Positions 36,797-54,124 are shown, numbered from the stretch's first letter. The stretch is DNA of 54,124 nucleotides from Opitutaceae bacterium (GCA_035656555.1 DASRSJ010000054.1:1-54124); one strand, 5' to 3'. Notes: generated by a model not told the origin, from the sequence alone. Translations and numbers: made by a program.

Positions 36797-39700
36797 TCAG
36801 GGAATGGCGTAGACTTCCACGAGGGCGATGCCTGTGTCTCCCGATGCGCCCTGGACCTGGGCCGTGTAAGAGCCTGGCGGCAACGTTATCAGTATTGCCG
36901 AATCGAGGGTCGCCGCCGTTCCCCACGAGAAGGCGCCTGCGGCGGCGGCCTCAGCTGCAACGAGCGCATCGCCGTTCCAACCCGCGTTGGTGGCGATTGT
37001 CTTCTGATCGCTGACAAGGGTGAGTCTGGGGTCGGGGATCGTGCCTGGGACGTTGAAAGCGTTGAGTGCCGGCCCCGAGGCGCGGATGAGGACAGTCTGG
37101 CTCGTCGTTCCCCCGATAACGAAACCCGCGATGAGTATGTTGCCTCCGGTCCCGACATAGGCGCGGGTCGAGATGTTGACCAGATGGGGAGCGCTGGCGC
37201 CCTGAAATGCGCCGTTCGTGGCGTCGTAGACTTCGACAAGGGAGACGCCGGTGCTTCCGCCGGCGCTGCTCACTTGTGCCGTGTAGGATCCCTGCTCTAG
37301 CGAGGTTGAGATGGCTGAGTCAGGAGTGGCCGTGGCTCCCCAGGTAAAGGCGCCGACCGAACTTGCCTCAGAGAAGATCCCGGCGGAGCCACCCCATCCC
37401 GTGTCAGTGGCGATAACGTCTTGATCGCTAAGGAGAACGATCCGTGGATCTGCGAGGGTACCGGTGACACCGAAGGAGGTAAGGGCCGGACCCGAGGCGC
37501 GGATAAGAACAGGATCGTTCGCCCCCGAACCTCCCTTTAACACGACACCGGCGATCATGATGCCGCCGCCTGTCTGTACCATCCCGCGGGTGGAAATATT
37601 GATGAGGTGGCCGGGATTGGTCGTCGTGACCACATTGAGTTTGGCAGCGGAAGTCAGGGTAGACCCCGAGGCGTTCGTGAGCAGGCAGTTGAAGTAGGCT
37701 GAATTGCCGCCAGCGGGGACTGAAATGAGTAGCGACGGTCCGGTCGCACCCTGGAGGGAAACGCCATTCTCAAACCATTGGTAAGAGGTTCCGCTCGCGG
37801 CTGTCTGAACCTTTGGCGAAATATGGTCTGCCGTAGAGACAATGCTGCCATTCTCGATTGAAAATATGACCGTTGACCCGGCCGTGACCGTCTGAGGCTG
37901 AGGCTGGGCCGGCACTTGGGGCGAACCAGCAGAGTCGATCGCCAGAAGAGCGCCGCTGCTGACAACATTTCCGGATGCACCCGTAGCGCTTACCGTGTAC
38001 GATCCGGCGTCACCGACTCCCGCCGACGCGATCGAATAGGACGGTCCGGTCGCACTCGGGATCGCCGCGCCATCGAAATACCATTGGTAGCCGGAAAGGG
38101 CGTCAGTCGAGGATACAGTGAACGTAGCTCCCTGTCCGGCAGGGACTGATTGGGAGACCGGAAGCACCTGGGCGCTCGGCGGTGTGCCGGCCTGAGACAA
38201 AACCACCACCGGCGGGGACGTGGGAGCCGGAGTCGGAGTGACTGTTGTCGTGCCAGTGGGCGACGGCGTTGGGGGAGTAGCCGACGTTGGGGTCGGTGTG
38301 GGTGTCGCCGAAGGCGTAGGCGTGCTGCTCGGTGTCGGAGTGACGTTCCGGGTCGGTGTCGGCGAGGGTATCGGGGTCGGAGTGGTATCCTGAGTCGGGG
38401 TGGGAGTGTAAGTGGGTGTCGGAGTTGCCGTTGGAGTTGGAGTGGGTGTTGGTGTGGGTATGGGTGTGGGCCCGCTTGCGACAGCCAACATCGCGGCCGT
38501 CGACGTTGCGGTCCCATACGCGTTGCTCACGACCACCTGATAGCTACCCGCGTCGCCGAGCTGGATATTCTGCAGGGAAAGAAATGACGAGGTCGCGTTT
38601 GTGATCGGGGCCGTGTTCTTTTCCCATTGGTAGGATAGCGTCCCCCCGCCATGGGCCGTGACGTTGAGAGTTAGCGAGTCGCCCACCGACACACTGGCCC
38701 CCGCCGGGGGTATGGAGATCACTGGTGGGTCCGTGAACGTGATAGTCGCCGTTTGCGACGATGCTGAAACACCGTTATACGTCGCCTGCAGATAATAGAC
38801 ACCGGCATCGATAAGGCTGCCGTTAATCGTATAGCTGTTGCTCGTCGCTCCCGCAACCGGGATGCCGTCCTGAAACCACTGATAGGTAAATGCCTGCAAT
38901 CCGACGGCTAGGGCGGTCATTGTCACGGAATTCGCAAGGCCGGTGTAGCCTGTCGGCTGTGTGAAGAACACGGGGGTTGTCGGTACGCTTGGAGAAGTGC
39001 CGGGCGTTACGCGGCTCAGGCGAGTGGGCAATGCGTAGAAAGTATAAAATCCCGCTGCGGAATCTACTACGGTGGCCACGCCTGCGCTCGAGACCCTTAT
39101 GGTCGCACCGTTCACGCTCAGGGTAGCGACCGTCCCGCCGATGCGGAGAAGTAGGTCGTATGCTGCGCCGGCGAAAATGGGTGCGTCCGCGCCCCCGTGA
39201 ACGAAGCTGTAGCTGTAGTCCTGTGCGCCGGCCGCCGAGTAGTGGATGCAGGCAAAGTAAGTTTGCCCGTTGGGGAAATTATTCTCGATTACAGTCAGCA
39301 GGCTGTCGTCGGAAAAGGTGCAATACCCTGCCACGCCGACCGTGCCATCGTTACGGCTGGCGACGGTTGAAAACGACGTGTCGATGCTCCCGTCGGAACC
39401 CAGCCGCTTTATATTCACGCCCAAGCCGACGGTCTGCGGTATGACGACGAAAGACTTTGCGTCATCTAGGGGCAGTACCTTTGGCAGTTGCCCGCTACTC
39501 AGCGCGGTGAGGTTCGAGAAACCTGCGTCCGTTGTTCCGTCCGGATTGTACCGCGCCAGGATGCGGCTATTGTTAAATGCATATATGCGACCGGAGGAAT
39601 CCATCCCGGCAATCACGAAGCTCGATGGCGCGGCTAGCGCGAAGCCGCTCTGCACACTTCCGTCGGGATTTATGAGATAGTTTACCTCTGATGTCCCATT

Positions 39701-40099
39701 TGAACCGACAATGTGGCCGTCCGGCTCGGAGTACATGAAGTCACCCAGTCCGACGATTCCCGTCAGATTGGGCAGGGTCGTGTCCAGGGTTCCGTCGTTG
39801 TTGATGCGGACGATGTTCGTGCCTGAGGAGGGATAGGATGTGCCGTCTACATCATCGAAAATCCCGTTGAAAATGTATCTGCCGTCGGATTGCGCCGCCC
39901 AGGACAAGATGCCGTTGTTCGGATGACTCGTCTGCTCGAGGTAGGTCAGCTGAGGACTGTACGAAGGATCAACTTGCCAGAACTGAGCCCGCAGTACGGC
40001 AGGAGCGAGGACAAGGAGAGCCCAGACCAGCGGGCCCAGAGCTATGCGCGTGGATTTTCTGCGCGGTGCGGGGCTGACGGATGGGGTGGTTGTAAGCAT
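36797..40099 (-). CDS. Large secreted multi-domain surface protein (delta-60-like repeats, 4 Ig-like domains, PT linker, 2 C-terminal NISTR-type domains)
   Basis: Signal peptide. Repeats of the N(P)DG(T/S)xDxxF type occur (NNDGTLDTTL, NPDGSVQSGF, NPDGTTDAGF, GSDGSIDTSF). Four Ig-like modules carry YQW..G....A and DAG.Y motifs. The two terminal modules begin LINISTRG and LVNISTRA. Confidence 0.8.
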   Translation of the reverse strand: MLTTTPSVSPAPRRKSTRIALGPLVWALLVLAPAVLRAQFWQVDPSYSPQLTYLEQTSHPNNGILSWAAQSDGRYIFNGIFDDVDGTSYPSSGTNIVRINNDGTLDTTLPNLTGIVGLGDFMYSEPDGHIVGSNGTSEVNYLINPDGSVQSGFALAAPSSFVIAGMDSSGRIYAFNNSRILARYNPDGTTDAGFSNLTALSSGQLPKVLPLDDAKSFVVIPQTVGLGVNIKRLGSDGSIDTSFSTVASRNDGTVGVAGYCTFSDDSLLTVIENNFPNGQTYFACIHYSAAGAQDYSYSFVHGGADAPIFAGAAYDLLLRIGGTVATLSVNGATIRVSSAGVATVVDSAAGFYTFYALPTRLSRVTPGTSPSVPTTPVFFTQPTGYTGLANSVTMTALAVGLQAFTYQWFQDGIPVAGATSNSYTINGSLIDAGVYYLQATYNGVSASSQTATITFTDPPVISIPPAGASVSVGDSLTLNVTAHGGGTLSYQWEKNTAPITNATSSFLSLQNIQLGDAGSYQVVVSNAYGTATSTAAMLAVASGPTPIPTPTPTPTPTATPTPTYTPTPTQDTTPTPIPSPTPTRNVTPTPSSTPTPSATPTPTPTSATPPTPSPTGTTTVTPTPAPTSPPVVVLSQAGTPPSAQVLPVSQSVPAGQGATFTVSSTDALSGYQWYFDGAAIPSATGPSYSIASAGVGDAGSYTVSATGASGNVVSSGALLAIDSAGSPQVPAQPQPQTVTAGSTVIFSIENGSIVSTADHISPKVQTAASGTSYQWFENGVSLQGATGPSLLISVPAGGNSAYFNCLLTNASGSTLTSAAKLNVVTTTNPGHLINISTRGMVQTGGGIMIAGVVLKGGSGANDPVLIRASGPALTSFGVTGTLADPRIVLLSDQDVIATDTGWGGSAGIFSEASSVGAFTWGATATPDSAISTSLEQGSYTAQVSSAGGSTGVSLVEVYDATNGAFQGASAPHLVNISTRAYVGTGGNILIAGFVIGGTTSQTVLIRASGPALNAFNVPGTIPDPRLTLVSDQKTIATNAGWNGDALVAAEAAAAGAFSWGTAATLDSAILITLPPGSYTAQVQGASGDTGIALVEVYAIP
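38210..38470 (-). repeat. Coding low-complexity Pro/Thr linker (about 87 codons)
   Basis: Translates to GPTPIPTPTPTPTPTATPTPTYTPTPT...TPTPAPTSPP. The degenerate ACN-CCN periodicity is visible in the DNA. Confidence 0.9.
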
Positions 40100-42424: not shown

Positions 42425-42991
42425 CTACGCCGAGAAATTCGGGTCGATGTCCCCGTAGTCCCGGCGCACCTTCTCCACGTTCTCGCGGTACTCCCGGGCG
42501 TTCCCGTACTCCATGAACTTGTCGTAGCGGCTGTGGGAGCAGTGCTCGCAGCTCAGGTGCTTGATCGGGCACCAGTGCTGCTCGGTCCTGGCCGCGATCT
42601 CCGCGATGTACCCGAGGATCCCGTTCACGTAGGCGCAGTACTCGCAATTGGCCTTCTCGAAGATGTTGAGGTAGGTCAGGTGCCTGCGGTCGAACTTCAC
42701 GTACTCCCGGCGGTGGACCTTGGGGATGCCGTAGATCGGGAAGCAGATCGACTGGTAGATCGTTCCCACGATGTCGGTGAAGATGATGGGAATCGCGCAC
42801 ATCCAGATGACGGGGGAGCTGATGAGGACGAAGAAGCGGGATTCCAGGATGTAGTGATGTCCCTTCTTCCGGAAGCTGCGGTGCTCCTCGAGCTCGGCCT
42901 CGGTGAAGTGGGTCTTGATCTCCTTGTACTTAGAGCACCCGGTGGCGCCCGTGGGCATGTCCTGTCTAGAGCTGGAGTCTAGGGAATTCAT
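42425..42991 (-). CDS. Cys-rich small membrane protein, unknown function
   Basis: 188 aa with one clear hydrophobic helix pair (FFVLISSPVIWMCAIPIIFTDIVGTIY). Cys motifs are CEYC and WCPIKHLSCEHC. GC3 is coding-like. Confidence 0.6.
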   Translation of the reverse strand: MNSLDSSSRQDMPTGATGCSKYKEIKTHFTEAELEEHRSFRKKGHHYILESRFFVLISSPVIWMCAIPIIFTDIVGTIYQSICFPIYGIPKVHRREYVKFDRRHLTYLNIFEKANCEYCAYVNGILGYIAEIAARTEQHWCPIKHLSCEHCSHSRYDKFMEYGNAREYRENVEKVRRDYGDIDPNFSA

Positions 42992-43078: not shown

Positions 43079-45073
43079 CTAGACCTTCGGCTTTGGAAGC
43101 AGCTTCGCGACCACCACCAGCAGCACGACGACGACCAGGCTGAGCGCCCCCCAAAAGACGAAGCCGCCATTCAGGCCCGCGAATACCGTCCTCGGCGAGG
43201 AGGCATCCGCCACGTCGTCGCCCAGATGGGCGGAACTGCGGGGCGAGGTGAGAAGGCGCCAGGAAACTAGGCCGAGGTCGTAGCGGGGCGCCATGGCGTC
43301 GGCGTTGCCGTAGGCGAGCGCGTACCCGTCGGAGTCCGCCACCTTGAACACCATGCGGACGACGGGGTAGACCGCCTGCACCGTCCCCAGGGAGATGGCG
43401 GGATTGTCGCCATTGTCGCACTCGATCCAGAGGACGTCGGAGTCCATGCGGTCCGGCAGGACGAAAGCCCTGTTCTCCGGTGCCCCAGGCGTGGGCGTGC
43501 GGTTCCACGAACCCGATGAGAGGGTGTCCTCCAGCGTGCCGCCGTCCTGGCCGGAGCGCTTCTCAAAGATGCGGATCTGCCGCTCAAAAAGGTTCGTGGA
43601 CGAGGACAGGACGATGCTCGTCACAGGCAGCCCGGACTTGGGCAGCTGCACCTTCCAAATGCTCACCGACGGCCTCTTCGGATCCGGCTCGGACTCGGCG
43701 GTGATGCTGAGCGAGCGGGCAAGGCCGGGCTGCTCGAGGACATAGGGAATCTGGTTGCCTGCATGGAGCAGCCTGAGATCCCCAAAGTCCGAGCGCACCT
43801 TCGAGAGCACGCCGAGGTCGAGCTCGAGTTCCTGGACTCCCGTGGCGGAGACCTGGACCGCCCTCTTGATCTTCCAGGCCGTCGCATCCAGTGGCGCGCC
43901 GGCCAGCGGGACTTCCGGCATCGGCGGGGTGCCGAGCGACTGGGGGGCATGGTAGTCGGGTGTGTCCTCGACCGGGCCGGGAGAGACGGTGGTCGCCTTC
44001 GCGCCGCGCATCTCCGCCGCGAAGGCGGCGAGGTCGTACTGGGGTGCGCCGACCTGCGGGTTGCCGGTTAAGAGCGAGTAGGCCCCGGGTGCCGGGGCCA
44101 TGAAGAGGAGACTGACCGGCCACCGCTTGAACGTCACGGCGTCGACCGCGAGCGGCTGCGAGTCGCCGTTGTGGATGTGGATCAGGAGCTCGCGTGTGGC
44201 CGGCGTTACGACGAAGGGCAGCTCGAGGCCCTCACGGGCCTGGCCGCCGCCCAAGGCAACGCGGAATATCGTGCCGGAGCCGATGATGCGCTCGCCGGGC
44301 ACGGCGTCGCGCATCTCGCGCACCGAGATCGTGACCCTGCGCATGAAGAGGGGGTCCTTGGTCTCGAAGGCAACGGCCGCGAGCGGAAGGTTCCGCCCGT
44401 CGAGGGCCACCGTCAGCACGCTCTCCCCGGCAAACTCGTCCCGCGAGGTGATGCGCGAGCCGACGCTCACCGGCTCCGGCGCAGGCGCCGCCTCCTCGGA
44501 AAGCCATGCGCCGACGAAGGGAAGCGGGACCTCGCGGTTGTCGGACACCGTTATCCGGATGAAGCCGGCCACGCGGCCGCCGAGCGGGACGGAGAGCTTC
44601 TCCGCGCCCCACTCGCGAAAGAGCGGCACGCCGTCGTCGAGCGTCGTCCAGGAAAAGCCCGACTCGGAGATCTCGATCCTTGCGGCCCTCAGGAAGAACG
44701 GCGCGGGGGTGTCCAAGGTGACCCAGGACAGGCCTTCCTTTGAGCCCGTCTTTATCAGGATAACGGTCGTTCCCGGACCGACCTTGGTCTCGAAGCCTTC
44801 CGGGCGGGCGACGCGCGGGGAGGGAACCGGGGGTCGGTCGACCAGTACGGCCGTCTCGCGTCCGGAGGGATCCAGCACCCTCAGGTCCTCCTGGCGTGAG
44901 CCGGCCGAGTCGAAGGTCGCCGCCGGCAGCTCGACGCGCACGAGGCCCGGCTCGACCACGGTGACGGCCTGGCGGTGCTGCCACTCCGTGGGCGTGAGGG
45001 CTGCGCAGCTGGCGGCGCCCAGCAGGGCGATCGCCGCGGTGAGGCTAAGCCGGTGGCGACGCGCGCTTTTCAT
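43079..45073 (-). CDS. DUF3999-like protein, internally duplicated, with C-terminal TM anchor
   Basis: Started at MKSARRHRL (ATG 45073) it has a signal peptide. Two homologous halves follow, and the C-terminus is the hydrophobic anchor FVFWGALSLVVVVLLVVVAKLL. Confidence 0.65.
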   Translation of the reverse strand: MKSARRHRLSLTAAIALLGAASCAALTPTEWQHRQAVTVVEPGLVRVELPAATFDSAGSRQEDLRVLDPSGRETAVLVDRPPVPSPRVARPEGFETKVGPGTTVILIKTGSKEGLSWVTLDTPAPFFLRAARIEISESGFSWTTLDDGVPLFREWGAEKLSVPLGGRVAGFIRITVSDNREVPLPFVGAWLSEEAAPAPEPVSVGSRITSRDEFAGESVLTVALDGRNLPLAAVAFETKDPLFMRRVTISVREMRDAVPGERIIGSGTIFRVALGGGQAREGLELPFVVTPATRELLIHIHNGDSQPLAVDAVTFKRWPVSLLFMAPAPGAYSLLTGNPQVGAPQYDLAAFAAEMRGAKATTVSPGPVEDTPDYHAPQSLGTPPMPEVPLAGAPLDATAWKIKRAVQVSATGVQELELDLGVLSKVRSDFGDLRLLHAGNQIPYVLEQPGLARSLSITAESEPDPKRPSVSIWKVQLPKSGLPVTSIVLSSSTNLFERQIRIFEKRSGQDGGTLEDTLSSGSWNRTPTPGAPENRAFVLPDRMDSDVLWIECDNGDNPAISLGTVQAVYPVVRMVFKVADSDGYALAYGNADAMAPRYDLGLVSWRLLTSPRSSAHLGDDVADASSPRTVFAGLNGGFVFWGALSLVVVVLLVVVAKLLPKPKV

Positions 45074-48000
45074 TGCTCGGAAGGAAACGTTGGTAGGCAA
45101 AGGAGGCCACGATCGCGATGACCGCGACCGCGAAGAGGGCGCCGACCCGGTAGAGCGCCTCGAGGTGGGCCAGGTCGTTGAAGAAGAGCTTCAGCAGCGC
45201 GACGCTGAGGAGGGCGATGGCCGCGTACCTCACATACGGCTGCTTCTTCCAGATGCCGGCCGCAAGGAGGCCGAGGGCGAAGAGGGCCCATGCGATCGTG
45301 TAGCACATGTCGCGCGCGAAGTTTCCGGAGAAATCAAACGCAAGGGAGCGGGACCCCGGGGCCGTGAAATAATCGGCGATCTCGATGTTCAGGAGCAGGA
45401 AGGAAAGGACGACACCCAGCGCGTACGTGACGGACTGGGCGTTGATGCCGAAGACAGACTCGCGGGGCGGGGCCAGGAGCCGGGAGGCCGTGAAGAGGGA
45501 GGCGATCGCGAGGCCGTAGGCGTAGAGGTACCAGTTAAGAAGGGGCGCCGCGCCGCGCGTGTGGTACTCGAGGACCGCGGGATTGAGCGCCAGTCTCGCG
45601 AACGCCGTGACAAGGAGGACGAAGCCCGTGGCCCTGAGGCCGGCGTGGGGCACGCGGTGATAGAGCCAGAGGAGCGCCGCTCCCTCCAGGGCCCACGCCA
45701 CCGTGAGCCACTGGCGGTCGAACTGGACGGGGAAGATGAGCGTGATGAAGAAGAGCGCCACGCCGCCGAACCAGGCCAGCTGGTTCAGCTTCGCCGGATT
45801 CTCCGCGTCCTTGGAGCGCAGGATGAGGGCAAGGCTCACGAGGGGAGCCACCGCGAACGCTGCGGGAATGAGGCCCAGGGCGGGGCTCGGCCACGCGAGC
45901 TTGATCGTTTCGTAGGTCATCCAGAAGTGCGCCACCCCGCTCAACGCGGCAACGGCCCACGGGCCCGTCATCCTGACGAATTTGGCCCTGAAGATGAAGG
46001 GGAAGACCGCGAACGAGGCGTAGAACACGAGGTACCAGGTGAGCGGCACCGTCGCCGAGGCCACGTTGAAGTGGCGCGTGTGCCACATGTATTCCAGGGA
46101 TGCGATGCCGGCGAGGGCGCACGCCGGCAGCCACTCAAGCTCCAGGATGACGGAGAGCCCGAGCGTCAGGACGACCAGGAGGAAGCCGAGCCCGAAGACC
46201 ATCGACGGGTCGGGGACCCTGAGCCTCGCGCAGACCATGATGAGGAGCAGGAAGGGCAATAGGGCAGAGAAGGCCGGGATCTGACTCTGTCCGCTCCCCA
46301 GGAGGCCCTTGAACCTCGGGTCCACGCTGGGCACGGAGCCGCCCATTTTCCGCACGAGCCACAGGCCGCCGATGAAGAAGAGGAGCGCAAAGCCGCCGAT
46401 GACGAGGAGGAGCGACGGGTCGACGAGCGCGTCCACCGGCCCGCGGAAGATGGACATGCCTGTCGCGGCGAGGGTCAGGACCAGCACGGCGGCGACGGAC
46501 ATCAGGGAGGCGGAGACGACGGCCAGCGCGATCGCCACCAGGTCAACGAGCAGGATCGCCGGCCAGACGAGGAAGGACACCGCCGCCATGCTGTAGATCG
46601 GGAACATCATCAGGATCAGCGCCAGCGGGGGGAATATCTGCTTCCAGAAGGACGGGACCATCCCCGGCCGGCGCCTCTCGAGCACGATCGGGAACGCCGT
46701 GTGGAGGATCGCGAAGAGCAGGCTGGCGCTGAGGGACCACTTCAGGAGCGGGTCGGTCAGGCTCTGCATGGTCCAGACCGAGAGAAGCGCGAATACCGCG
46801 GCGCCCGCTCCGACGTGCAGCTCGGGATTTTCCTCGTCCAGCCACGCAACCGCGAGGAGCATCAGGTCGGCGCCGAACACGAGCCCGAGGACGAGGCCCG
46901 GCCGCGAGCCCATCTGCAGGTTCACGATCATGTAGAGCGCGATCACGAGGCCGACGGCCGGCATCCCGACCGCGGACCAGAGGACCGCGGGGCCCGCCCG
47001 CCCGAGGCGGCGCGCCGCGACGTACGCGATCAGGAAAAGGGCGCTGAAGCCCAGGCACACGGCGACGACGACCGGCGCGTCGGCGACCTTCACACTGCCC
47101 ACAAGCCACCTCGCGATGACAAGCGCCGTGAAGGCCGCGGCCGCAAACACGAGCTGGTCCATCTTCTCCCGCCAGGCGAGGATCAGGGTGAAGAGGGCGG
47201 CGCCGAGGACGAATGAGAAGATGAGGCCCGCCTGGTCCGCCACCTGCGGGAAGCTCAGGAAATAGAGGGCGAAGCAGAAGGCGAGGGCGGGTAGGGCGAT
47301 GGCCGTGCGGCCGAGCACGCGGGTGTCGCGTCCCATGCGCCTCGCGACCTCGGTGGCCGCCGTGAAGAGGGCGCAGTAGCCGAGGCACACCACCATGGCC
47401 GTCACCGTCTTCTCGGGCGCGTAGAAATTGTCCGCCCAGCCGCAGATCATCAGGACCGTGCCTGCGGCTCCGAGCGGGATAAGGTAGAGCCACTTGCGGT
47501 GCAGCGCGACGGCGATCAGCCCGATGACCAGGAGGGCGACGTAGCCGAAGAGGCCGGCCGGGTTGTCGTGGCCGGAATTGAGCAGCTTGGGCGTGAGGAA
47601 TCCGCCGAGGATGCCAAGGACCGCGACGACCTGCGCGTCCAGTCTCACGGCGAGGACGAAGGCCGCCGCCGTGATGAGGCTCATCATCAGGAAGGTCTCA
47701 AGCGGGCCGAAGTACGCGAAGTGGTAGACCGAGTTCGCCGCGAACGTGACGGCGTAGAGGGAGACGACGCCCGAGGCCACGAGCGTCTGGGAGGTTATGC
47801 CGTAGGCCTCGCGGGAAATCTTCAGTCCCCCGACGATCAGGCCGACGCCGAGGATGAAACCCATGGCGACCCTCACCTGCGGCGGTATCAGGTCATGCTC
47901 GAACGAGTACTTCACGAAGAACGCCACGCCGAGGAAGAGGGCGAGGCCGCCCAGCCAGGCGAAGAGCTTGGCGCCCATGAACTGCTCCCAGTTGATCGCC

Positions 48001-48461
48001 GGGGCCCTGGGCCCGGACTCGTGGACCAGCTCGCGGATGGGCTCCGGCTCGGGCGGGCGTTCCTCGAGCGCCGCATGCGTCGCAATCCCCCCGAGGATCG
48101 GCGGGGCCTCAAGGACGGGTTCAAGCTCCGGTTCAGGAATGGCAGTCTGGGCCACCTCTTTGGGTTCATCCAGGGACTCGAGAGCCTGGGCATACCTCTC
48201 CTCAAAGGGTGGCAATTCTTCCTTGGGCTCTTCGTCCCTAGTCGGCTCGGCCGACGCCTCGGGAGTTTTAGCCAGCCTCTCGATGGGGACGCTCTTCAGC
48301 AGACTCTTGAGGCTGGCCAGGTCAGCATCCTGAATTCGGATCTTCGTCCTGAGTGCCTCGAGGTCCTCGCCGTGCGCCTTGACTCTCATGATGGTCCACA
48401 GCGGCAGGATCAGCAGAACTGCAATCAGGTAGATCGCCAGCACTACGATGAAGGGTCCCAT
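45045..48461 (-). CDS. DUF2339-like giant polytopic membrane protein
   Basis: Started at MGPFIVV (ATG 48461). It has an N-terminal TM helix, a coiled-coil/acidic linker, then WEQFMGAKLFAWLGGLALFLGVAFFVKYSFE and more than 25 further hydrophobic helices. Its 3-prime end overlaps the next gene by 29 nt. Confidence 0.7.
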   Translation of the reverse strand: MGPFIVVLAIYLIAVLLILPLWTIMRVKAHGEDLEALRTKIRIQDADLASLKSLLKSVPIERLAKTPEASAEPTRDEEPKEELPPFEERYAQALESLDEPKEVAQTAIPEPELEPVLEAPPILGGIATHAALEERPPEPEPIRELVHESGPRAPAINWEQFMGAKLFAWLGGLALFLGVAFFVKYSFEHDLIPPQVRVAMGFILGVGLIVGGLKISREAYGITSQTLVASGVVSLYAVTFAANSVYHFAYFGPLETFLMMSLITAAAFVLAVRLDAQVVAVLGILGGFLTPKLLNSGHDNPAGLFGYVALLVIGLIAVALHRKWLYLIPLGAAGTVLMICGWADNFYAPEKTVTAMVVCLGYCALFTAATEVARRMGRDTRVLGRTAIALPALAFCFALYFLSFPQVADQAGLIFSFVLGAALFTLILAWREKMDQLVFAAAAFTALVIARWLVGSVKVADAPVVVAVCLGFSALFLIAYVAARRLGRAGPAVLWSAVGMPAVGLVIALYMIVNLQMGSRPGLVLGLVFGADLMLLAVAWLDEENPELHVGAGAAVFALLSVWTMQSLTDPLLKWSLSASLLFAILHTAFPIVLERRRPGMVPSFWKQIFPPLALILMMFPIYSMAAVSFLVWPAILLVDLVAIALAVVSASLMSVAAVLVLTLAATGMSIFRGPVDALVDPSLLLVIGGFALLFFIGGLWLVRKMGGSVPSVDPRFKGLLGSGQSQIPAFSALLPFLLLIMVCARLRVPDPSMVFGLGFLLVVLTLGLSVILELEWLPACALAGIASLEYMWHTRHFNVASATVPLTWYLVFYASFAVFPFIFRAKFVRMTGPWAVAALSGVAHFWMTYETIKLAWPSPALGLIPAAFAVAPLVSLALILRSKDAENPAKLNQLAWFGGVALFFITLIFPVQFDRQWLTVAWALEGAALLWLYHRVPHAGLRATGFVLLVTAFARLALNPAVLEYHTRGAAPLLNWYLYAYGLAIASLFTASRLLAPPRESVFGINAQSVTYALGVVLSFLLLNIEIADYFTAPGSRSLAFDFSGNFARDMCYTIAWALFALGLLAAGIWKKQPYVRYAAIALLSVALLKLFFNDLAHLEALYRVGALFAVAVIAIVASFAYQRFLPSNEKRASPPA

Positions 48462-48470
48462 TCGCCTGCA

Positions 48471-48530
48471 CTCTATATAGATACGACCGCCCCAAGCGAC
48501 ATTTTTGCAATACACCCACTATATATAGAG
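48471..48530 (-). promoter_or_regulatory. AT-rich inverted repeat in the promoter/leader of the DUF2339 operon
   Basis: On the plus strand, CTCTATATAG (48471..48480) and CTATATATAGAG (48519..48530) are inverted copies flanking a 38-nt spacer that contains TTGCAA. The proximal copy ends 10 nt from the ATG. This is the most AT-rich spot in the window. Confidence 0.4.
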
Positions 48531-48613
48531 AATATCCGCAATTGGTTGCAGAGGCCCGGCCCGGCTCGCGTCGGCCATATTGGACGAACACGCAACCCAC
48601 TTCGAATCAAGGA

Positions 48614-49846
48614 CTAGCCTGCAGCGGCTCCGACGGAACGGATGTCCACCGTGGAGCGCACCCCGGCCTTGTCCTGCATCTTCTCGCGGTATTCGCCGGG
48701 GGGGTGCCCGGTGACCCGCTTGAAAAGGACGCTCATATATTCGGTGTATTCAAAGCCCGTCAGCTCCGCCACGCGCTTGAGCGGATAGTCGGTGTCGATC
48801 AGGAGCTCGGAGATCTTGTTCACCTGGACCCTGCGGATCTCCGCCTGTGGTGAGCGCCCAATGTACTTCCTGAACTTTTTCTCGAGGAGGCTTCGGGAGA
48901 TGTGGGAATTCTCGGCGACCTGGTCCGGCGTCAGGCCGGAGCAGGCGTTCTTGCGGATGTAGTTCACGGCTTCCGCGATCTTCTCGTCGTCAATTGCAAG
49001 TGAGTCGGTCGACAGGCGTGTCACGACGCCGAGCGGCTCAACCCTCTGGTCGAGGTTCTGCGGCTTGCCGCCGGCAAGCATCTCCGCGAGGAGGCTCGCG
49101 GCCCTGAACCCGGACTGGAAGGCATTCGGGGCGACGCTCGAGAGCGCCGGGATTGTCATCTCGCAGCGGAAGGTCTCGTTGTTGGCCCCGAGGATCGCCA
49201 GATCCTCGGGCACCGAAATTCCTGAGATGCCAGCGGCGTTGATCAGCTGCTGGGCCCTCAGGTCATTGCAAGCCATGACCGCCGTCGGCTTTGACAGCTC
49301 TCCCAGCCACTCGGCAATCTTGGCGAGCTGCTTTGAGTTCCATGAAGGTGTTGAGGATTCCGGGCAGTGCACATCCAGGACGTTGCAGTCCTGGCCCGCG
49401 CGCCTGAGAGCCTCGACGAAGCCGTCCCTGCGCTCGGCCGACCACGCCTGGCCTGTGAAGCCCGCGAAGCCAAAGCTGCTGTATCCGCGCTCAAGAAGGT
49501 GCTCGGCGCCGAGCCTGCCGATCGTGGCGTTGTCGGGACGGATCTTCGGGACGCCCTCGAAGACGGCCACGTCGTTGAGATCAACCAGTGGTACGTTCAT
49601 CTCCTTGCACGCGGCTACGAGCTTCGCGGTGGTGTGGCGGCTGATGACGCCCTTCCAGTTTCCTTCGCGGATCCACTTTGGATCCGTCTCTGCGACCGCG
49701 AGATCGTCATGGAATGCCGTCCACGCGCCGTGGCTTCGCTCATAATGCGCGATTCCCTTCAGCATGGAGGTGCACTCCTCGAACTGGGGCCTGAAAATCA
49801 GGAGCACCTCCGGTCGCTTCAGGGCACGCATGGTCAGATGGCGCAT
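48614..49846 (-). CDS. XylR-type regulator (periplasmic-binding-protein-like sensor + AraC HTH)
   Basis: The architecture and C-terminal sequence (IRKNACSGLTPDQVAENSHISRSLLEKKFRK...FEYTEYMSVLFKRVTGHPPGEYRE) parallel E. coli XylR as I recall it. An alternative start exists at 49831. Confidence 0.8.
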   Translation of the reverse strand: MRHLTMRALKRPEVLLIFRPQFEECTSMLKGIAHYERSHGAWTAFHDDLAVAETDPKWIREGNWKGVISRHTTAKLVAACKEMNVPLVDLNDVAVFEGVPKIRPDNATIGRLGAEHLLERGYSSFGFAGFTGQAWSAERRDGFVEALRRAGQDCNVLDVHCPESSTPSWNSKQLAKIAEWLGELSKPTAVMACNDLRAQQLINAAGISGISVPEDLAILGANNETFRCEMTIPALSSVAPNAFQSGFRAASLLAEMLAGGKPQNLDQRVEPLGVVTRLSTDSLAIDDEKIAEAVNYIRKNACSGLTPDQVAENSHISRSLLEKKFRKYIGRSPQAEIRRVQVNKISELLIDTDYPLKRVAELTGFEYTEYMSVLFKRVTGHPPGEYREKMQDKAGVRSTVDIRSVGAAAG

Positions 49847-50086: not shown

Positions 50087-50306
50087 TGTTACGTTCAAAA
50101 TTTCACACCGCTTTCCCGGATTTCTCATTTTTCATACAAGCGTCCACATTTCCTCGGCTTCGGGAAAAAGGTATAAACACCGCGCATCGCCCAACTGCCC
50201 AGCCGCAGCTTACCCCTGCGACTCGGCAAATTGCCCCCGATCCTGACGAGTTCTCCCCCGAGAACTCTCTGCCCCTGTCATCAACCCCAAGTCCCAACAC
50301 CAAACC

Positions 50307-53300
50307 ATGCCTGCTAATCGTACACTGGCGTTGCTGCGTGCCCTCACGGTCACCTCAGCGCTCGGTCTGTCTGTAGTGCCTCGCATCGCGGTCGCCCAGA
50401 CCGCTCCAGCCACCGACACAACCACAACCACGACGACGACGACGGCTGCGGCCGCCCCGGACGCGGAAGAGCCCACAGTGCTTTCCCCGTTCGTAGTCGA
50501 CGCGGCCGAGGACAAGGGAAGCTACAAAGCCAACAGCACGTTGGCCGGCACCCGCGTCCGCACCGACCTGAAGGATGTCGCCTCCGCGATCTCCGTCGTC
50601 ACGGCGCAGTTCCTCCAGGACACGGGCGCCAAGAACGCCTCTGACCTGCTGGTCTACACGCCGAGCACCGAGGTTGCCGGTCTCCGTGGTAACTTCTCGG
50701 GCGCCGCGGGCAGCGCGGTCGTCCAGGAAAACACGGTTTCCGCCACGACCCGCGTTCGTGGTCTCGATTCCGCCGACAACACCCGCGACTACTTCCTGAC
50801 GGACATTCCGTGGGACAGCTTCGACGTGGGTCGCGTTGACCTCCAGCGCGGACCGAACTCGATCCTCTTCGGAACGGGCTCGCCGGCCGGCATCATCAAC
50901 GTGAGCACCAACGGCGCCTCGTTCAACAACTCCTACAACGTCACGAACCGCTTCGACCAGTACGGCTCGCTGCGCGACTCCGTGATGATCAACCAGGAGC
51001 TCATCCCCGGCGTGCTGGCGATCCGCCTCGCGGCCCTGCAGGACGACGAGAAGTTCGAGCAGGCCGACGCCTTCGAGAACACCACCCGCTACTACGGCGC
51101 GTTCCGGTTCGACCCGAAGCTCTTCGGCAAGGACAGCCACACGACGATCCGCGGCAACTTCGAGCGCGGCCAGCAGACCTCGGACGAGCCCCGCACGCTC
51201 CCCCCGACCGATGAGATCACGCCTTGGTTCTCGACTGCGCTGAACATCGGCGGCGTCACGAACCCCGGCTACAACAAGCTCACGGAAAACCAGTTCTCCA
51301 ACGCGAACACGACCGCCAGCGGCGCCAATACCCCCGGCGGTTCAGGTGGTCCCGAGTCGGCGAACTACTTCCAGCTCGGCGGCTTCTCGCAGGGCCGCTC
51401 GTACTGGGCGGATGTCGTCAACTACTACGAGGCGACGCCTGTCGCCATCAACGGCCAGTCCGGCGCCCTCGCGCCCGGCGGCACGCCGATCAAGGTCATC
51501 ACGGCTGAGGCCAACACCGGTCTCGCCGCTGGCGGCGCGATCGCCGGCATCAGCGCCTTCCGCCCTGACGCCATCCCGCCGTTCAGCCTGATCGCCGACT
51601 ACCTCGGTGCGAACGACACGGTCAACGGCGGCAATGAGCCCTTCAAGGCCATCCCCGGCGGCGCGTACTACACGGACAAGGTCCTCACCGACACGTCGAT
51701 CTTCAACTTCTACAAGAAGCTGCTCGACGGCCCGAACAAGCATGAGTGGAAGAACTGGAACTCCTTCAACATCTCGGTTGACCAGAGCTTCTTCGACGAC
51801 CGCCTTGCTTTCGAGGTCGCCTATGACCAGCAGAAGTACGTCGAGGGCGCCGAGCCGTTCCTCGAGGGTGAGAACTATGCCATCAACGTCGACGTCAACC
51901 AGACGTACGCTGACGGCACGGCCAACCCGAACGTCGGTCGCCCCTATGTCGCCAACGCGACGTCGGGTGGTGAGGACAACAACTACCAGACGACCACGAC
52001 CCGCAATACATGGCGCTTCACCCCGACGGGCGAGCTGAGGTCCTCGGACTTCTTCAGCAACCCGACGATGACGTACCTGCTCGGCAAGAGCGACGTCACC
52101 GCGCTCTTCGAGAAGAACACGGTTGTCCAGAGCACGTACCAGTTTGCCGAGTTTGCCACGACGCCCGACTACATCACCGCGAACTCCCTGAACGCCAACG
52201 CGGCGAACACGGAGAATTCGAACCGCTCCTACGAGTTCCTGGCCTACATCGGGCCGAGCCTCGCGAGCAGGACGTCGGCCGCGAACTCGAACCTGAACAA
52301 CCTGAACTACGTGATCGCCCCGCCGGAGCACGAGCAGACGCTCAACTTCAACTCGACCTGGAACAAGCCGACGGATCCCTCCGCCCCCGGCTATGTCGAC
52401 CCGGCCGCTCCGTACACGTACACGAGCACGGTGACCGGCGTCACGACGACCAACTCGACGCAGAACAACAACCCGGCGAACTACGTCGGCTGGACCAACC
52501 AGCAGATCTCCTACATGTACGCCAGCGACCCGAAGGACCTGCCCGACCTCGTGTCGGCGGCGAGCCGCACGCGCTACACCGACGAGTCCGAAGGCATCAC
52601 CTGGCAGGGCTACCTGCTCGGCGGCGACCTCGTTCCCTCGCTCGGCTGGCGCAAGGACAAGGTCACGAACTACCTGACGACGTCCCCGACGGACCAGAAC
52701 ACGGGCTACACGAGCCTGAGCTACCCCGACAACGAGCAGTCCCGCACGGATGTCGAGGGCACGAGCAAGACCTGGGGCGGTGTTTACCACTTCCCGAAGT
52801 CGCTCATGGAGAAGCTCCCCGGTGACCTGACGTTCAGCATCCTGTTCAACCGCTCGGAGAACTTCAAGCCGGACGCGGCCCGCCTCGATCTGGATGGCAA
52901 TCACATCCCGAACGCGACCGGCACCACGACGGAGTACGGCTTCGTCACCACGGCCCTGGCGGACAAGATCTCGCTCAAGGTTGACTGGTTCAAGACCACG
53001 GTGAAGAACGCCTCGCTCGGTGAGACGGACGGTAACTCGATCGCCGGACTGGGCTCCAACGCCTACTTCGTCGCTGACGGTGTCATCTGGGGATACGGCT
53101 GGGCGACGGCGCTCCAGGACGGTCTCCGCGGCAACCTCGGCAACGGTGTCTCGAGCAACCTGCCGAACTCCAACTACTGGGATTACGGCGCAGGCAACGG
53201 TTACGCCATCGGCAGCCCGCAGTACATCGCCACGAACCAGGCCTCGGCGGCCATCGTGAACGCGTGGGTCAACAATCCGTTCTCGGCGAACTTCTTCAAC

Positions 53301-54124
53301 AGCTACAACCTGTCGCCGCCGATCAACCCCACGCTCGCCAAGGGCTCGGGCCTCCTGTCCTCCGGCTTCATCAACGGCAACAACGATGCCAACGATGCGG
53401 CGGGCGGCGAGAGCGGCTCGAACTTCGGTGACCACCAGACCACGGTCGACAACCTGTCGAAGGGCTTCGAAATCGAGCTCTCCGCGCAGCCGACCCGCAA
53501 CTGGAACATCACGGTCAACTACTCGCACGTCAACGCGACCCACGAGAACATCGACCCCGCCATGCAGGCCTTCATCGGCCAGGTCACGGCGTTCATGAAC
53601 GGACCCGGCGGCCAGGTTCGCATGTGGTGTAACTCCTGCGGCACCCTCGGCGCCGACTGGAACTCCTCGATCGTCGCCCCCTGGACGGTGCAGCTGAACG
53701 ACCAGGGCCACGAGGCCCCCGAGGTCGCTCCGTGGAGGCTCAACCTCGTGTCGACGTACTCCTTCGACCGCGGCCCGATCAAGGGCTGGTTCATCGGCGG
53801 TGGCCTGCGCGTTGAGGCGGCCCGTATCCTCGGATACAGGTACGACCCGACGTTCAAGAACATCAACTCGGATGACCCGAACTATGCCCAGGTCACCTCG
53901 GTCACCCAGGGCGGCCTGAATGTCAACGAGCCCTGGAAGGGGTCCAATGACACCCACGTTGACGCGTGGCTCGGCTACTCGAGGAAGATCTACCGGAACG
54001 TCAACTGGCGCATCCAGCTGAACCTCCAGAACGTCGGCGAGAAGGACCATCTGGTCGCCTCGGCCTTCGAGCCGGACGGCAGCCTGGCCCTCGCCCGCAT
54101 CCAGCTCGGAATGGGCTGGAAGCT
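50307..54124 (+). CDS. TonB-dependent outer membrane receptor, 3-prime partial (at least 1272 aa)
   Basis: It is absent from the ORF track because no stop codon occurs before the window end. Frame 0 is open from ATG 50307. It has a signal peptide, a poly-Thr stretch, a plug start (LSPFVVDAAEDKGSYKANSTLAGTRVRTDLKDVASAISVV, RVDLQRGPNSILFGTGSPAGIIN) and barrel-end-like VNWRIQLNLQNV...GMGWK at the window edge. Confidence 0.85.
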   Translation, partial: MPANRTLALLRALTVTSALGLSVVPRIAVAQTAPATDTTTTTTTTTAAAAPDAEEPTVLSPFVVDAAEDKGSYKANSTLAGTRVRTDLKDVASAISVVTAQFLQDTGAKNASDLLVYTPSTEVAGLRGNFSGAAGSAVVQENTVSATTRVRGLDSADNTRDYFLTDIPWDSFDVGRVDLQRGPNSILFGTGSPAGIINVSTNGASFNNSYNVTNRFDQYGSLRDSVMINQELIPGVLAIRLAALQDDEKFEQADAFENTTRYYGAFRFDPKLFGKDSHTTIRGNFERGQQTSDEPRTLPPTDEITPWFSTALNIGGVTNPGYNKLTENQFSNANTTASGANTPGGSGGPESANYFQLGGFSQGRSYWADVVNYYEATPVAINGQSGALAPGGTPIKVITAEANTGLAAGGAIAGISAFRPDAIPPFSLIADYLGANDTVNGGNEPFKAIPGGAYYTDKVLTDTSIFNFYKKLLDGPNKHEWKNWNSFNISVDQSFFDDRLAFEVAYDQQKYVEGAEPFLEGENYAINVDVNQTYADGTANPNVGRPYVANATSGGEDNNYQTTTTRNTWRFTPTGELRSSDFFSNPTMTYLLGKSDVTALFEKNTVVQSTYQFAEFATTPDYITANSLNANAANTENSNRSYEFLAYIGPSLASRTSAANSNLNNLNYVIAPPEHEQTLNFNSTWNKPTDPSAPGYVDPAAPYTYTSTVTGVTTTNSTQNNNPANYVGWTNQQISYMYASDPKDLPDLVSAASRTRYTDESEGITWQGYLLGGDLVPSLGWRKDKVTNYLTTSPTDQNTGYTSLSYPDNEQSRTDVEGTSKTWGGVYHFPKSLMEKLPGDLTFSILFNRSENFKPDAARLDLDGNHIPNATGTTTEYGFVTTALADKISLKVDWFKTTVKNASLGETDGNSIAGLGSNAYFVADGVIWGYGWATALQDGLRGNLGNGVSSNLPNSNYWDYGAGNGYAIGSPQYIATNQASAAIVNAWVNNPFSANFFNSYNLSPPINPTLAKGSGLLSSGFINGNNDANDAAGGESGSNFGDHQTTVDNLSKGFEIELSAQPTRNWNITVNYSHVNATHENIDPAMQAFIGQVTAFMNGPGGQVRMWCNSCGTLGADWNSSIVAPWTVQLNDQGHEAPEVAPWRLNLVSTYSFDRGPIKGWFIGGGLRVEAARILGYRYDPTFKNINSDDPNYAQVTSVTQGGLNVNEPWKGSNDTHVDAWLGYSRKIYRNVNWRIQLNLQNVGEKDHLVASAFEPDGSLALARIQLGMGWK

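What the first reader, a model, noticed from the sequence alone, without database searches (positions are those of the whole stretch)
43079..48461. Overlapping DUF2339 / DUF3999 gene pair: an uncharacterised envelope module with an internally duplicated partner
Two minus-strand genes overlap by 29 nt (stop at 45045, next ATG at 45073). This argues for coupled translation and fixed stoichiometry.

The first product has one N-terminal TM helix, then a coiled-coil and acidic Pro-rich linker (RVKAHGEDLEALRTKIRIQDADLASLKSLL ... EPELEPVLEAPP), then more than 25 hydrophobic helices in visibly repeated blocks.

The second product has a signal peptide and two homologous halves:
- WQHRQAVTVVEPGLVRVELPAATFDSAGSRQEDLRVLDPSG versus WKIKRAVQVSATGVQELELDLGVLSKVRSDFGDLRLLHAGN
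- NGDSQPLAVDAVTF...APQYDL versus NGDNPAISLGTVQAV...APRYDL

It ends in a C-terminal TM anchor. I recognise these as DUF2339 and DUF3999, which to my knowledge have no assigned function.

The predicted geometry is a huge polytopic membrane protein plus a membrane-tethered, beta-rich extracytoplasmic partner. It is followed co-directionally by a Cys-rich membrane protein and a secreted oligopeptidase B. Together this looks like a dedicated envelope system rather than isolated hypotheticals.
Basis: partly seen in the sequence, partly recalled or inferred. Interest (0 to 1): 0.72.

Follow-up and report, generated by a model that had tools for sequence, protein, structure and literature searches.

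The report
Arc3A/Arc3B-type membrane defence gene pair
The two overlapping genes are real and correctly recognised as DUF2339 and DUF3999, but this pair was already characterised in Pseudomonas aeruginosa in 2022 as Arc3A/Arc3B, which protects cells against phospholipase toxins, and the two downstream genes do not belong to it.

Summary
All sequence observations hold. There are two minus-strand genes with a 29-nt overlap. The first is a 1138-aa DUF2339 protein with about 35 membrane helices and ~110-aa internal repeats. The second is a 664-aa DUF3999 protein with a signal peptide, two homologous halves and a C-terminal membrane helix.

The DUF2339/DUF3999 pair is not function-less. It is the Arc3A/Arc3B module of P. 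aeruginosa (PA5114/PA5113; Ting et al. 2022, eLife; confirmed in Nat Commun 2025). The two proteins co-purify there. Arc3A blocks lysophospholipid build-up caused by type VI secretion (T6SS) phospholipase toxins. The adjacency across phyla was already reported.

The window comes from an Opitutaceae bacterium (Verrucomicrobiota). In 80 related genomes DUF2339 sits directly upstream of DUF3999 wherever the flank is long enough (73/73). The start-before-stop overlap is conserved, most often at 29 nt. The Cys-rich gene, oligopeptidase B and the AraC regulator are absent from all 80, so there is no four-gene system.

Modest new details:
- The two-half "long" DUF3999 form is widespread.
- It folds as tandem discoidin/CBM32-like β-sandwiches.
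- DUF2339 length varies by whole four-helix units.
- A sister lineage places an LplT–Aas fusion next to the pair.

Verdict: new member of a known kind.

The parts
45045..48461 (-). arc3A-like gene: 1138-aa DUF2339 polytopic inner-membrane protein of about 35 TM helices
   Evidence: PF10101 at 269 bits, E 1e-79. Identical 1138-aa JGI gene call P0390. AlphaFold2 model has one N-terminal helix plus 34 helices after the linker. K/R count is 36 versus 14 on alternate sides, which fits N-out/C-in.
48291..48461 (-). N-terminal TM helix (aa 4-22) continuing as one long helix to aa 57, a putative coiled coil predicted to be cytoplasmic
   Evidence: Hydrophobic segment at aa 4-22. Single helix H2-57 in the model. 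Side assignment from the positive-inside count is an inference.
47997..48290 (-). Acidic, Pro-rich, poorly conserved linker (aa 58-155)
   Evidence: The loop aa 23-164 has 30 D/E against 16 K/R. pLDDT is below 50 for aa 62-155. The consensus is mostly x and P in alignment A3.
46248..47567 (-). Tandem ~110-aa units of four TM helices each (aa ~299-738); copy number differs between homologues
   Evidence: hhalign self-match E 7e-21 at a 110-aa offset. Unit alignment. Homologue length classes of ~1020, ~1130, ~1270 and 1441 aa, with the indels mapping to aa ~300-610.
45045..45073 (-). 29-nt out-of-frame overlap: the arc3B-like ATG lies inside the last 9 codons plus stop of the arc3A-like gene
   Evidence: Sequence read directly. 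In 74 related loci, 59 have the ATG 17-50 nt before the upstream stop, always in the same relative frame, and 33 have exactly 29 nt.
43079..45073 (-). arc3B-like gene: 664-aa "long-form" DUF3999 protein with signal peptide, all-β periplasmic body and C-terminal TM anchor
   Evidence: PF13163 at 38.2 bits, cut-off 30. AlphaFold2 pLDDT 83.9, pTM 0.71, all-β. Foldseek matches to tandem discoidin/F5-8 type C/CBM32 domains.
43919..45004 (-). First half (aa 24-385). It corresponds to the Pfam DUF3999 core and includes an extra ~125-aa β-sandwich insert (aa ~90-215) plus motifs W31, DLR(63-65), NGD(302-304) and YD(346-347)
   Evidence: The Pfam match covers aa 109-361, model positions 121-373 of 424. 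hhalign. Invariant columns.
43166..43918 (-). Second half (aa 386-636): a shortened copy of the first half that keeps the same motifs (W400, D432/R434, N554/D556, Y598/D599)
   Evidence: BLASTP of the halves E 2e-9. Profile-profile E 2e-31, probability 99.9%. Invariant columns.
43106..43162 (-). C-terminal TM helix (aa 638-656) followed by KLLPKPKV. It is unusually conserved for a simple anchor and is a candidate contact with the DUF2339 helix array
   Evidence: Hydrophobic segment scoring 2.94. Invariant W641, L644, V648, L651, V655, L658, L659, P660 and K661 in 43 sequences. L651, L658 and P660 are invariant at ~30-55% identity. A weak match to the C-terminal end of PF13163. The contact role is an inference.

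Best explanation
This is a two-gene Arc3A/Arc3B-type envelope module in an Opitutaceae (Verrucomicrobiota) chromosome.

Shown here:
- The upstream gene encodes a DUF2339 protein that is almost entirely membrane-embedded. It has about 35 helices joined by loops of 2-17 residues and is built partly from tandem four-helix units.
- The downstream gene starts 29 nt before the first gene's stop. It encodes a DUF3999 protein that is exported, consists of discoidin/galactose-binding-like β-sandwiches, and is held in the inner membrane by a conserved C-terminal helix.
- The pairing and the overlap are conserved across Verrucomicrobiota and beyond.

Inferred from the characterised P. aeruginosa homologues (PA5114/PA5113):
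- The two proteins form a complex.
- The DUF2339 subunit is the active part. It protects the membrane from phospholipase-A-type damage by preventing accumulation of detergent-like lysophospholipids (lyso-PE, monolyso-cardiolipin).
- The DUF3999 subunit plays an auxiliary role.

My reading of the mechanism (inference):
- The large array of TM hairpins acts as an intramembrane sink or platform. It either sequesters lysolipids or excludes or traps the lipase. This is the hypothesis the original authors put forward.
- The periplasmic β-sandwich arm is made in fixed proportion through translational coupling and docks through its conserved TM helix.
- The arm presents two copies of a conserved polar site (W / DLR / NGD / YD) towards the periplasm or outer membrane.

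The Cys-rich gene, oligopeptidase B and the AraC-type regulator are neighbours by local synteny only.
For: Family membership:
- PF10101 and PF13163 both score above their gathering cut-offs. This is the exact operational definition of Arc3A/Arc3B homologues used by Ting et al. (Methods).
- About 35 helices compares with 35 predicted for Arc3A.
- The C-terminal TM helix in the DUF3999 partner matches Arc3B.

Conserved pairing:
- DUF2339 lies immediately upstream on the same strand in all 73 loci that have an upstream flank.
- The overlap is conserved, with a mode of 29 nt.

Function in the family:
- arc3A is the top Tn-seq hit for Tle3 defence.
- Lyso-PE and MLCL accumulate in the Δarc3A mutant.
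- Arc3A and Arc3B co-immunoprecipitate.
- Divergent homologues complement the mutant.
- An independent CRISPRi screen confirmed protection against the lipases TseL and Tle1.

Lipid link inside this clade: in an Opitutaceae lineage at 64-65% identity, the gene just upstream of the pair is an 1120-aa MFS_1 + Acyltransferase + AMP-binding fusion. That is the LplT-Aas lysophospholipid transporter and re-acylase (L001/L002; L012). The eLife paper reports the same aas neighbourhood.

Fold: the DUF3999 model is confident (pLDDT 83.9). It matches neuropilin b1b2, factor VIII C domains, DDR1 discoidin and CBM32 modules (weak sequence echo).
Against: - No experiment exists for any Verrucomicrobial member. 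Sequence distance to the Pseudomonas proteins could not be measured directly because their sequences were not retrievable with these tools.
- All complementing homologues in the paper were proteobacterial.
- The molecular mechanism is unknown even in P. aeruginosa.
- In pairwise assays Arc3B deletion had no detectable phenotype.
- The window has no aas/lplT gene, and only 1 of 80 related loci has one within 10 kb.
- The predicted outer-membrane lipid anchor of Arc3B is not a conserved feature here. The window protein has a lipobox-like AASC, but most homologues have a plain signal peptide with no Cys.
- The DUF3999 Pfam score is only just above threshold (38 versus 30 bits).
- Discoidin/CBM32-like folds more often bind glycans than lipids.
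Confidence: 0.72

Rival explanations
1. One reading: a dedicated four-gene (or five-gene, with the regulator) envelope system made of DUF2339, DUF3999, the Cys-rich membrane protein and secreted oligopeptidase B, working together.
For: The four genes are co-directional with short gaps of 87 and ~80 nt and no terminator-like site between them. The same five-gene order is kept in the nearest relative at 75% identity (L005/L006).
Against: - None of 80 related loci has the Cys-rich gene, PtrB or the AraC regulator within 10 kb of the pair.
- At 64% identity the downstream genes are an unrelated 193-aa protein and an amidohydrolase. At 57% the downstream element is an IS110.
- L009 has Cys-rich + S9 peptidase with no DUF2339/DUF3999.
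- The Cys-rich family has unrelated neighbours in other phyla.
- The AraC/PBP regulator sits divergent to a large TonB-receptor-like gene and more plausibly serves that gene.
Confidence: 0.03
2. Same family, but the native role is housekeeping membrane-lipid homeostasis rather than defence against rival bacteria. The pair would buffer lysophospholipids made by the cell's own lipoprotein acylation, outer-membrane phospholipase or environmental lipases and detergents.
For: - The pair is near-universal in a clade of free-living soil and freshwater Verrucomicrobiota and sits among ordinary metabolic genes.
- Linkage to LplT-Aas, a housekeeping repair pathway, occurs in one lineage.
- Ting et al. 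themselves note that endogenous and environmental lysolipids may be the ongoing threat.
Against: In P. aeruginosa, Arc3A did not change LPE stability without antagonism and is poorly expressed unless Gac/Rsm is activated. No expression data exist for this organism.
Confidence: 0.18
3. A glycan- or cell-wall-directed machine. The CBM32/discoidin-like domains of DUF3999 would bind a polysaccharide (peptidoglycan, LPS core or exopolysaccharide), and the DUF2339 helix array would act as a scaffold or transporter unrelated to lysolipids.
For: The top fold matches include carbohydrate-binding modules of fucosidases, sialidases, GH92, ZmpB CBM32 and BcsB. Conserved polar motifs appear in both halves.
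Against: - No glycosyltransferase, polymerase or export genes are conserved beside the pair. The most frequent neighbours are lineage-specific dehydrogenase and M13 peptidase genes in at most 29 of 80 loci.
- The only experimental phenotype in the family is lipid-related.
- The same fold also binds phospholipid membranes in factor V/VIII C domains (established knowledge; matches).
Confidence: 0.07

Closest known systems
Arc3A/Arc3B (PA5114/PA5113) of Pseudomonas aeruginosa, antagonism resistance cluster 3 (Ting et al. 2022, eLife 11:e74658; Nat Commun 2025 16:10744)
   Same: - The same two Pfam families in the same order and orientation.
- A giant polytopic subunit of about 35 TM helices with no obvious catalytic domain.
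- A partner that is exported and ends in an inner-membrane TM helix.
- Pairing conserved across phyla.
- An aas (LplT-Aas) gene sometimes adjacent.
   Different: - The DUF3999 partner here is the ~660-aa long form with an internal duplication. The Pfam model is 424 positions, and only aa 109-361 match it above threshold.
- The N-terminal lipobox predicted for Arc3B is ambiguous here and absent in most close homologues.
- Here the two genes overlap by 29 nt.
- There is no estA-like esterase downstream.
- Gac/Rsm control is a Pseudomonas feature and is not expected here.
- No functional data exist for any Verrucomicrobial member.
LplT-Aas lysophospholipid transport and re-acylation pathway (E. 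coli LplT/Aas; PA3267 fusion)
   Same: It deals with the same class of damage, lysophospholipids produced by phospholipase A. A fused LplT-Aas gene lies directly upstream of the pair in a sister Opitutaceae lineage.
   Different: It is an unrelated protein family (MFS + acyltransferase + acyl-ACP synthetase) with a known enzymatic mechanism. Genetically it is independent of and additive with Arc3A in P. aeruginosa. It is absent from this window.
Discoidin / F5-8 type C / CBM32 galactose-binding-like β-sandwich domains (neuropilin b1b2, factor VIII C1-C2, DDR1)
   Same: The predicted DUF3999 body is a chain of such β-sandwiches. Foldseek probability is up to 1.00, E 2e-5 to 2e-4, with a weak sequence echo to the neuropilin b1 domain.
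   Different: There is no significant sequence similarity (best E 0.06). Whole-chain TM-scores are low (0.1-0.25) because the domain arrangements differ. The ligand is unknown. This is a fold resemblance, not family membership.

Membership tests
Arc3A (DUF2339, PF10101) | Match to Pfam PF10101 above the gathering threshold; this is the criterion Ting et al. used to call Arc3A homologues | tested here: met
   269.2 bits against a cut-off of 33.6, E 1.3e-79, aa 164-746 plus two further stretches.
Arc3A (DUF2339, PF10101) | Very large number of densely packed TM helices (35 predicted in PA5114) with no recognisable enzymatic domain | tested here: met
   35 helices in the AlphaFold2 model, loops mostly 2-17 aa. 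No other Pfam or NCBIfam hit. No membrane-protein structural relative in the PDB.
Arc3A (DUF2339, PF10101) | Protects against phospholipase (Tle3/TseL/Tle1) intoxication and prevents lyso-PE/MLCL accumulation | not testable with these tools
   Needs genetics and lipidomics. Known only for Pseudomonas members.
Arc3B (DUF3999, PF13163) | Match to Pfam PF13163, with the gene encoded adjacent to an Arc3A-like gene | tested here: met
   38.2 bits against a cut-off of 30, E 1.3e-9. Directly downstream and overlapping by 29 nt. NCBI names close homologues "DUF3999 family protein".
Arc3B (DUF3999, PF13163) | C-terminal inner-membrane TM helix | tested here: met
   aa 638-656 followed by a K-rich tail. 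Helix H638-658 in the model. Highly conserved.
Arc3B (DUF3999, PF13163) | N-terminal lipoprotein signal, predicted as an outer-membrane anchor so that the protein spans the periplasm | tested here: inconclusive
   The window protein has ...LLGAAS-C23, which is lipobox-like with a non-canonical Ala at -3. Most homologues in 74 loci lack any Cys there and look like ordinary signal peptides ending ...AALTPTEW.
Arc3A/Arc3B system | Stable physical association of the two proteins | not testable with these tools
   Co-IP was shown only in P. aeruginosa. Here the support is indirect only: invariant adjacency, the conserved overlap and the conserved TM anchor.
Arc3A/Arc3B system | Frequent genomic neighbourhood with aas/lplT | tested here: not met
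   No homologue in the window. Present beside the pair in L001/L002/L012 only, which is 1 of 80 GTDB loci. The paper describes this as frequent, not defining.
Discoidin / galactose-binding-like domain superfamily (fold level only) | β-sandwich jelly-roll fold detectable by structure comparison | tested here: met
   Foldseek probability 1.00 to neuropilin b1b2 (2qqi), DDR1 (4ag4), FVIII (5k8d) and fucosidase CBM (4zrx, 8ayr). This rests on a predicted model, and sequence-level membership is not met (best E 0.06).

The most novel reading that the evidence does not exclude
The long-form pair could be a previously undescribed kind of lipid-handling machine. DUF2339 would be a membrane-embedded solenoid of TM hairpins: a fold with no solved relative that grows and shrinks by whole four-helix units and serves as an intramembrane sink or conduit for lysolipids. 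The duplicated DUF3999 arm would use two conserved W/DLR/NGD/YD sites on discoidin-like domains, like the membrane-binding C domains of clotting factors. It would capture lysolipids or grip the outer membrane without a lipid anchor and feed or position the helix array.
Probability: 0.2. Interest if true: 0.7.

Novelty: new member of a known kind. Interest (0 to 1): 0.3.

Why it matters
The Arc3 family is very widespread, and in P. aeruginosa it is the single most important factor protecting against a T6SS phospholipase toxin. Its mechanism is still unknown.

This locus adds no new system. It does show three things:
- The pair, its start-before-stop overlap and a duplicated long-form partner are fixed features in Verrucomicrobiota and some Acidobacteriota, Binatota and Alphaproteobacteria.
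- The partner is built of discoidin-like domains.
- The giant subunit evolves by adding or losing four-helix units.

These points give concrete handles for whoever tackles the mechanism: conserved motifs to mutate, a conserved TM anchor, and natural length variants. It also corrects the annotation "function unknown" for this gene pair.

Tried and rejected
- Retrieving the P. aeruginosa PA5114/PA5113 sequences for a direct comparison was not possible. The genome scan returned only the 80 best loci, all long-form. tblastn of the DUF2339 protein against plasmids gave three weak partial hits. Membership therefore rests on the Pfam criteria used by the original authors.
- A search for LplT-Aas in the window found nothing.
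- A search for any conserved third gene around the pair in 80 loci found only lineage-specific neighbours: 2-hydroxyacid dehydrogenase in 29 loci, a PQQ/HEAT/cytochrome c protein in 18, and an M13 peptidase in 17.
- A PDB sequence search with the DUF3999 profile gave only sub-threshold neuropilin hits.
- A PDB fold search with the DUF2339 model gave only soluble α-solenoid/TPR and designed repeat proteins at TM ~0.1. This is no informative relative, and the model itself is only moderately confident (pLDDT 70.5).
- A sigma-70 promoter scan found none, and terminator-like hits were no more than chance.
- My first attempt to fix DUF3999 starts by requiring a lipobox failed, because most homologues lack the Cys. 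That failure was itself informative.
- Other DUF2339 mentions in the literature are incidental mutation or transposon hits in S. maltophilia and P. syringae, with no mechanism.
Full report
**1. Observation**

The window has two minus-strand ORFs at 45045..48461 (ATG start, 1138 aa) and 43079..45073 (ATG start, 664 aa). Both have the GC3 of ~0.88-0.89 typical of real genes in this 65% GC sequence.

The junction reads CCGAGCA-ATG-AAAAGCGCGCGTCGCCACCGGCT-TAG. The second gene's ATG (45073) therefore lies 29 nt before the end of the first gene's stop (45045). A JGI gene call on an identical public contig gives the same 1138-aa product (P0390).

Pfam assigns PF10101 DUF2339 (269 bits) to the first product. 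It assigns PF13163 DUF3999 (38.2 bits, cut-off 30) to the second. NCBIfam has nothing for either.

**2. Anatomy of the DUF2339 protein**

- A crude hydropathy scan finds 29 hydrophobic segments.
- The AlphaFold2 model (mean pLDDT 70.5, with >90 across aa ~350-550) has a continuous helix at aa 2-57. This is the TM helix plus a putative coiled coil.
- A disordered acidic/Pro-rich linker follows at aa 62-155, then 34 helices joined by very short loops.
- Counting K/R on alternate sides gives 36 versus 14. This fits an N-out, linker-cytoplasmic, C-in topology with 35 TM helices. That topology is an inference, not a dedicated predictor.
- The "repeated blocks" are real. Profile self-comparison gives E 7e-21 at a 110-aa offset across aa ~299-717. 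Each unit is four helices.
- Homologues fall into length classes of ~1020, ~1130, ~1270 and 1441 aa. BLAST shows the differences map to this repeat region. The family therefore evolves by gain and loss of whole units.
- A fold search of the PDB finds no membrane protein. It finds only soluble α-solenoids and designed helical-repeat toroids at TM ~0.1.

**3. Anatomy of the DUF3999 protein**

- It has an N-terminal signal sequence, a ~610-residue body and a C-terminal TM helix (aa 638-656) followed by KLLPKPKV.
- The halves are homologous: BLASTP E 2e-9 and profile-profile E 2e-31. The first half carries an extra ~125-aa insert.
- The same polar residues are invariant in both halves: W31/W400, D63-R65/D432-R434, N302-D304/N554-D556 and Y346-D347/Y598-D599.
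- The Pfam model matches only the first half above threshold. The far C-terminus weakly matches the end of the model.
- The AlphaFold2 model is confident (pLDDT 83.9, pTM 0.71) and all-β.
- Foldseek matches tandem discoidin/F5-8 type C/CBM32 domains, namely neuropilin b1b2, DDR1, factor VIII C domains and fucosidase CBMs. Probability reaches 1.00, but whole-chain TM-scores are low. A sub-threshold sequence echo to neuropilin b1 agrees.
- The C-terminal TM helix is strikingly conserved. I read this as a specific helix-packing contact rather than a mere anchor. That is an inference.

**4. What is already known**

A full-text search shows this pair is not uncharacterised. Ting et al. (eLife 2022, PMC8926400) named PA5114/PA5113 arc3A/arc3B. 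They report that:

- Arc3B homologues are PF13163 proteins encoded next to Arc3A-like genes.

Their findings:

- arc3A is the most important P. aeruginosa gene for surviving the T6SS phospholipase Tle3.
- Δarc3A cells accumulate lyso-PE and monolyso-cardiolipin.
- Arc3A and Arc3B co-immunoprecipitate.
- Divergent homologues complement the mutant.
- arc3B has only a minor effect.
- aas (LplT-Aas) genes often neighbour arc3 and act additively with it.

A second group confirmed protection against the lipases TseL and Tle1 (Nat Commun 2025, PMC12663445). The mechanism remains open. The authors suggest lysolipid sequestration or interference with the lipase. No further mechanistic paper was found.

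**5. Relatives and synteny**

The organism is an Opitutaceae bacterium close to Lacunisphaera and Oleiharenicola.

The ~660-aa two-half form is not peculiar to this locus:

- All of the best 120 word-indexed hits are long form.
- Nearly all of the best 150 cluster representatives, down to 30% identity, are 640-690 aa. In total 2510 representatives score E<1e-3.
- It occurs in other Verrucomicrobiota, Ca. Sulfopaludibacter, Ca. Binatus and a Dongiaceae MAG.

In 80 species-representative loci:

- A DUF2339 gene is immediately upstream on the same strand in all 73 with enough flank.
- In 59 of 74 loci the DUF3999 ATG lies 17-50 nt before the DUF2339 stop, always in the same relative frame. Exactly 29 nt occurs in 33. 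This supports translational coupling as a conserved feature.
- None of the 80 has the Cys-rich gene, an oligopeptidase B or the AraC-type regulator within 10 kb.
- Those genes accompany the pair only in the nearest relative at 75% identity (L005/L006).

Further points against a larger module:

- At 64% identity the downstream genes are unrelated. At 57% there is an IS110.
- An Opitutaceae contig has Cys-rich + S9 peptidase without the pair (L009).
- Elsewhere the Cys-rich family has unrelated neighbours.
- De novo clustering of flanking ORFs found no third conserved gene.
- The AraC/PBP regulator is divergent to a large TonB-receptor-like gene that runs off the window end, and probably serves that gene.

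One informative neighbour did emerge. In L001/L002/L012 the gene just upstream of the pair is an 1120-aa MFS_1 + Acyltransferase + AMP-binding fusion. This is an LplT-Aas lysophospholipid transporter and re-acylase, and it is preceded by a MarR gene. That ties the pair to lysolipid handling within this clade as well. It is rare, however (1 of 80), and absent from the window.

**6. Differences from P. aeruginosa Arc3**

- The partner here is the duplicated long form.
- The N-terminal lipobox that led Ting et al. to propose an outer-membrane anchor is ambiguous here (LLGAAS-C). It is missing in most homologues, which have plain signal peptides.
- The genes overlap here.
- Regulation must differ.

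**7. Verdict**

The family assignments, geometry, coupling and conserved adjacency are right. The claim that the pair is uncharacterised and the claim of a four-gene system are wrong.

The best explanation is an Arc3A/Arc3B-type membrane-protection module. Family membership is shown. Function is inferred by homology, and mechanism is inferred and still open.

Novelty: new member of a known kind. The incremental details are the long-form duplication, the discoidin-like fold, the unit-wise length variation, the conserved overlap and the non-conserved lipobox.

Interest is low to moderate. The family's unknown mechanism is worth pursuing, but this locus does not by itself open it.

Noticed in passing
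window 42425-42991 (-): The 188-aa Cys-rich protein belongs to a large family of ~2000 homologues. They are ~55-60% identical across Verrucomicrobiota and Acidobacteriota, and none has a Pfam or NCBIfam model or a source name. The protein has one TM helix. Invariant residues are C65, C83, C116, C119, H139, C141, H145, C148, C151 and H153, a pattern that looks like metal or Fe-S binding. Its neighbours differ between phyla. In three Opitutaceae contigs it sits just upstream of an S9 peptidase.
   Followed up: partly
L001 3092-6454, L002 379-3741, L012 1673-5032: In a sister Opitutaceae lineage an 1120-aa MFS_1 + Acyltransferase + AMP-binding fusion lies directly upstream of the DUF2339/DUF3999 pair. 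It is an LplT-Aas type lysophospholipid transporter and re-acylase, and a MarR gene precedes it in L001. This echoes the arc3-aas linkage reported for Proteobacteria.
   Followed up: partly
window 46248-47567 (-) and homologues P0411, P0416, P0451, P0456, P0484: DUF2339 homologues fall into discrete length classes of ~1020, ~1130, ~1270 and 1441 aa. The classes differ by whole ~110-140-aa units of about four TM helices in the repeat region. This is a natural copy-number series of membrane repeats.
   Followed up: partly
window 48480-48540 (-), upstream of the DUF2339 ATG: An AT-rich island in a GC-rich genome holds near-palindromic TCTCTATATATAG and TCTATATAGAG elements and a TATTGCAAAAA motif. 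The first element and TATTGCAAAAA are conserved in L005. ATATTGCAAA also appears in L001. This may be a promoter or operator. No sigma-70 consensus was detected in the region.
   Followed up: partly
window ~50300-54124 (+): A long plus-strand gene of at least 1290 aa (GC3 0.90) has a signal peptide and a Thr-rich start. It runs off the window end with a TonB-dependent-receptor-like C-terminus. It is divergent to the AraC/periplasmic-binding-domain regulator at 48614-49846, which therefore probably regulates it rather than the Arc3-like pair. The 902-aa minus-strand ORF listed there looks like an antisense artefact (GC3 0.53).
   Followed up: partly
window 36797-40099 (-): An 1100-aa secreted protein has DUF5122 β-propeller repeats, Ig-like domains and a long Pro/Thr-rich linker (PTPTPTPT...). 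It also has two similar C-terminal ~130-aa repeats (HLINISTRG... and HLVNISTRA...). It is probably a surface adhesin-like protein and was not examined further.
   Followed up: no
L009 versus L005/L006 and the window: Compare the Opitutaceae contig lacking the pair (FMN_bind_2 | Cys-rich | S9 peptidase | ... SRAP, FGGY, XylA2-like) with the contigs that have it. The block of TonB-receptor/regulator/DUF2339/DUF3999 appears to have been inserted or lost as a unit between FMN_bind_2 and the Cys-rich gene.
   Followed up: no
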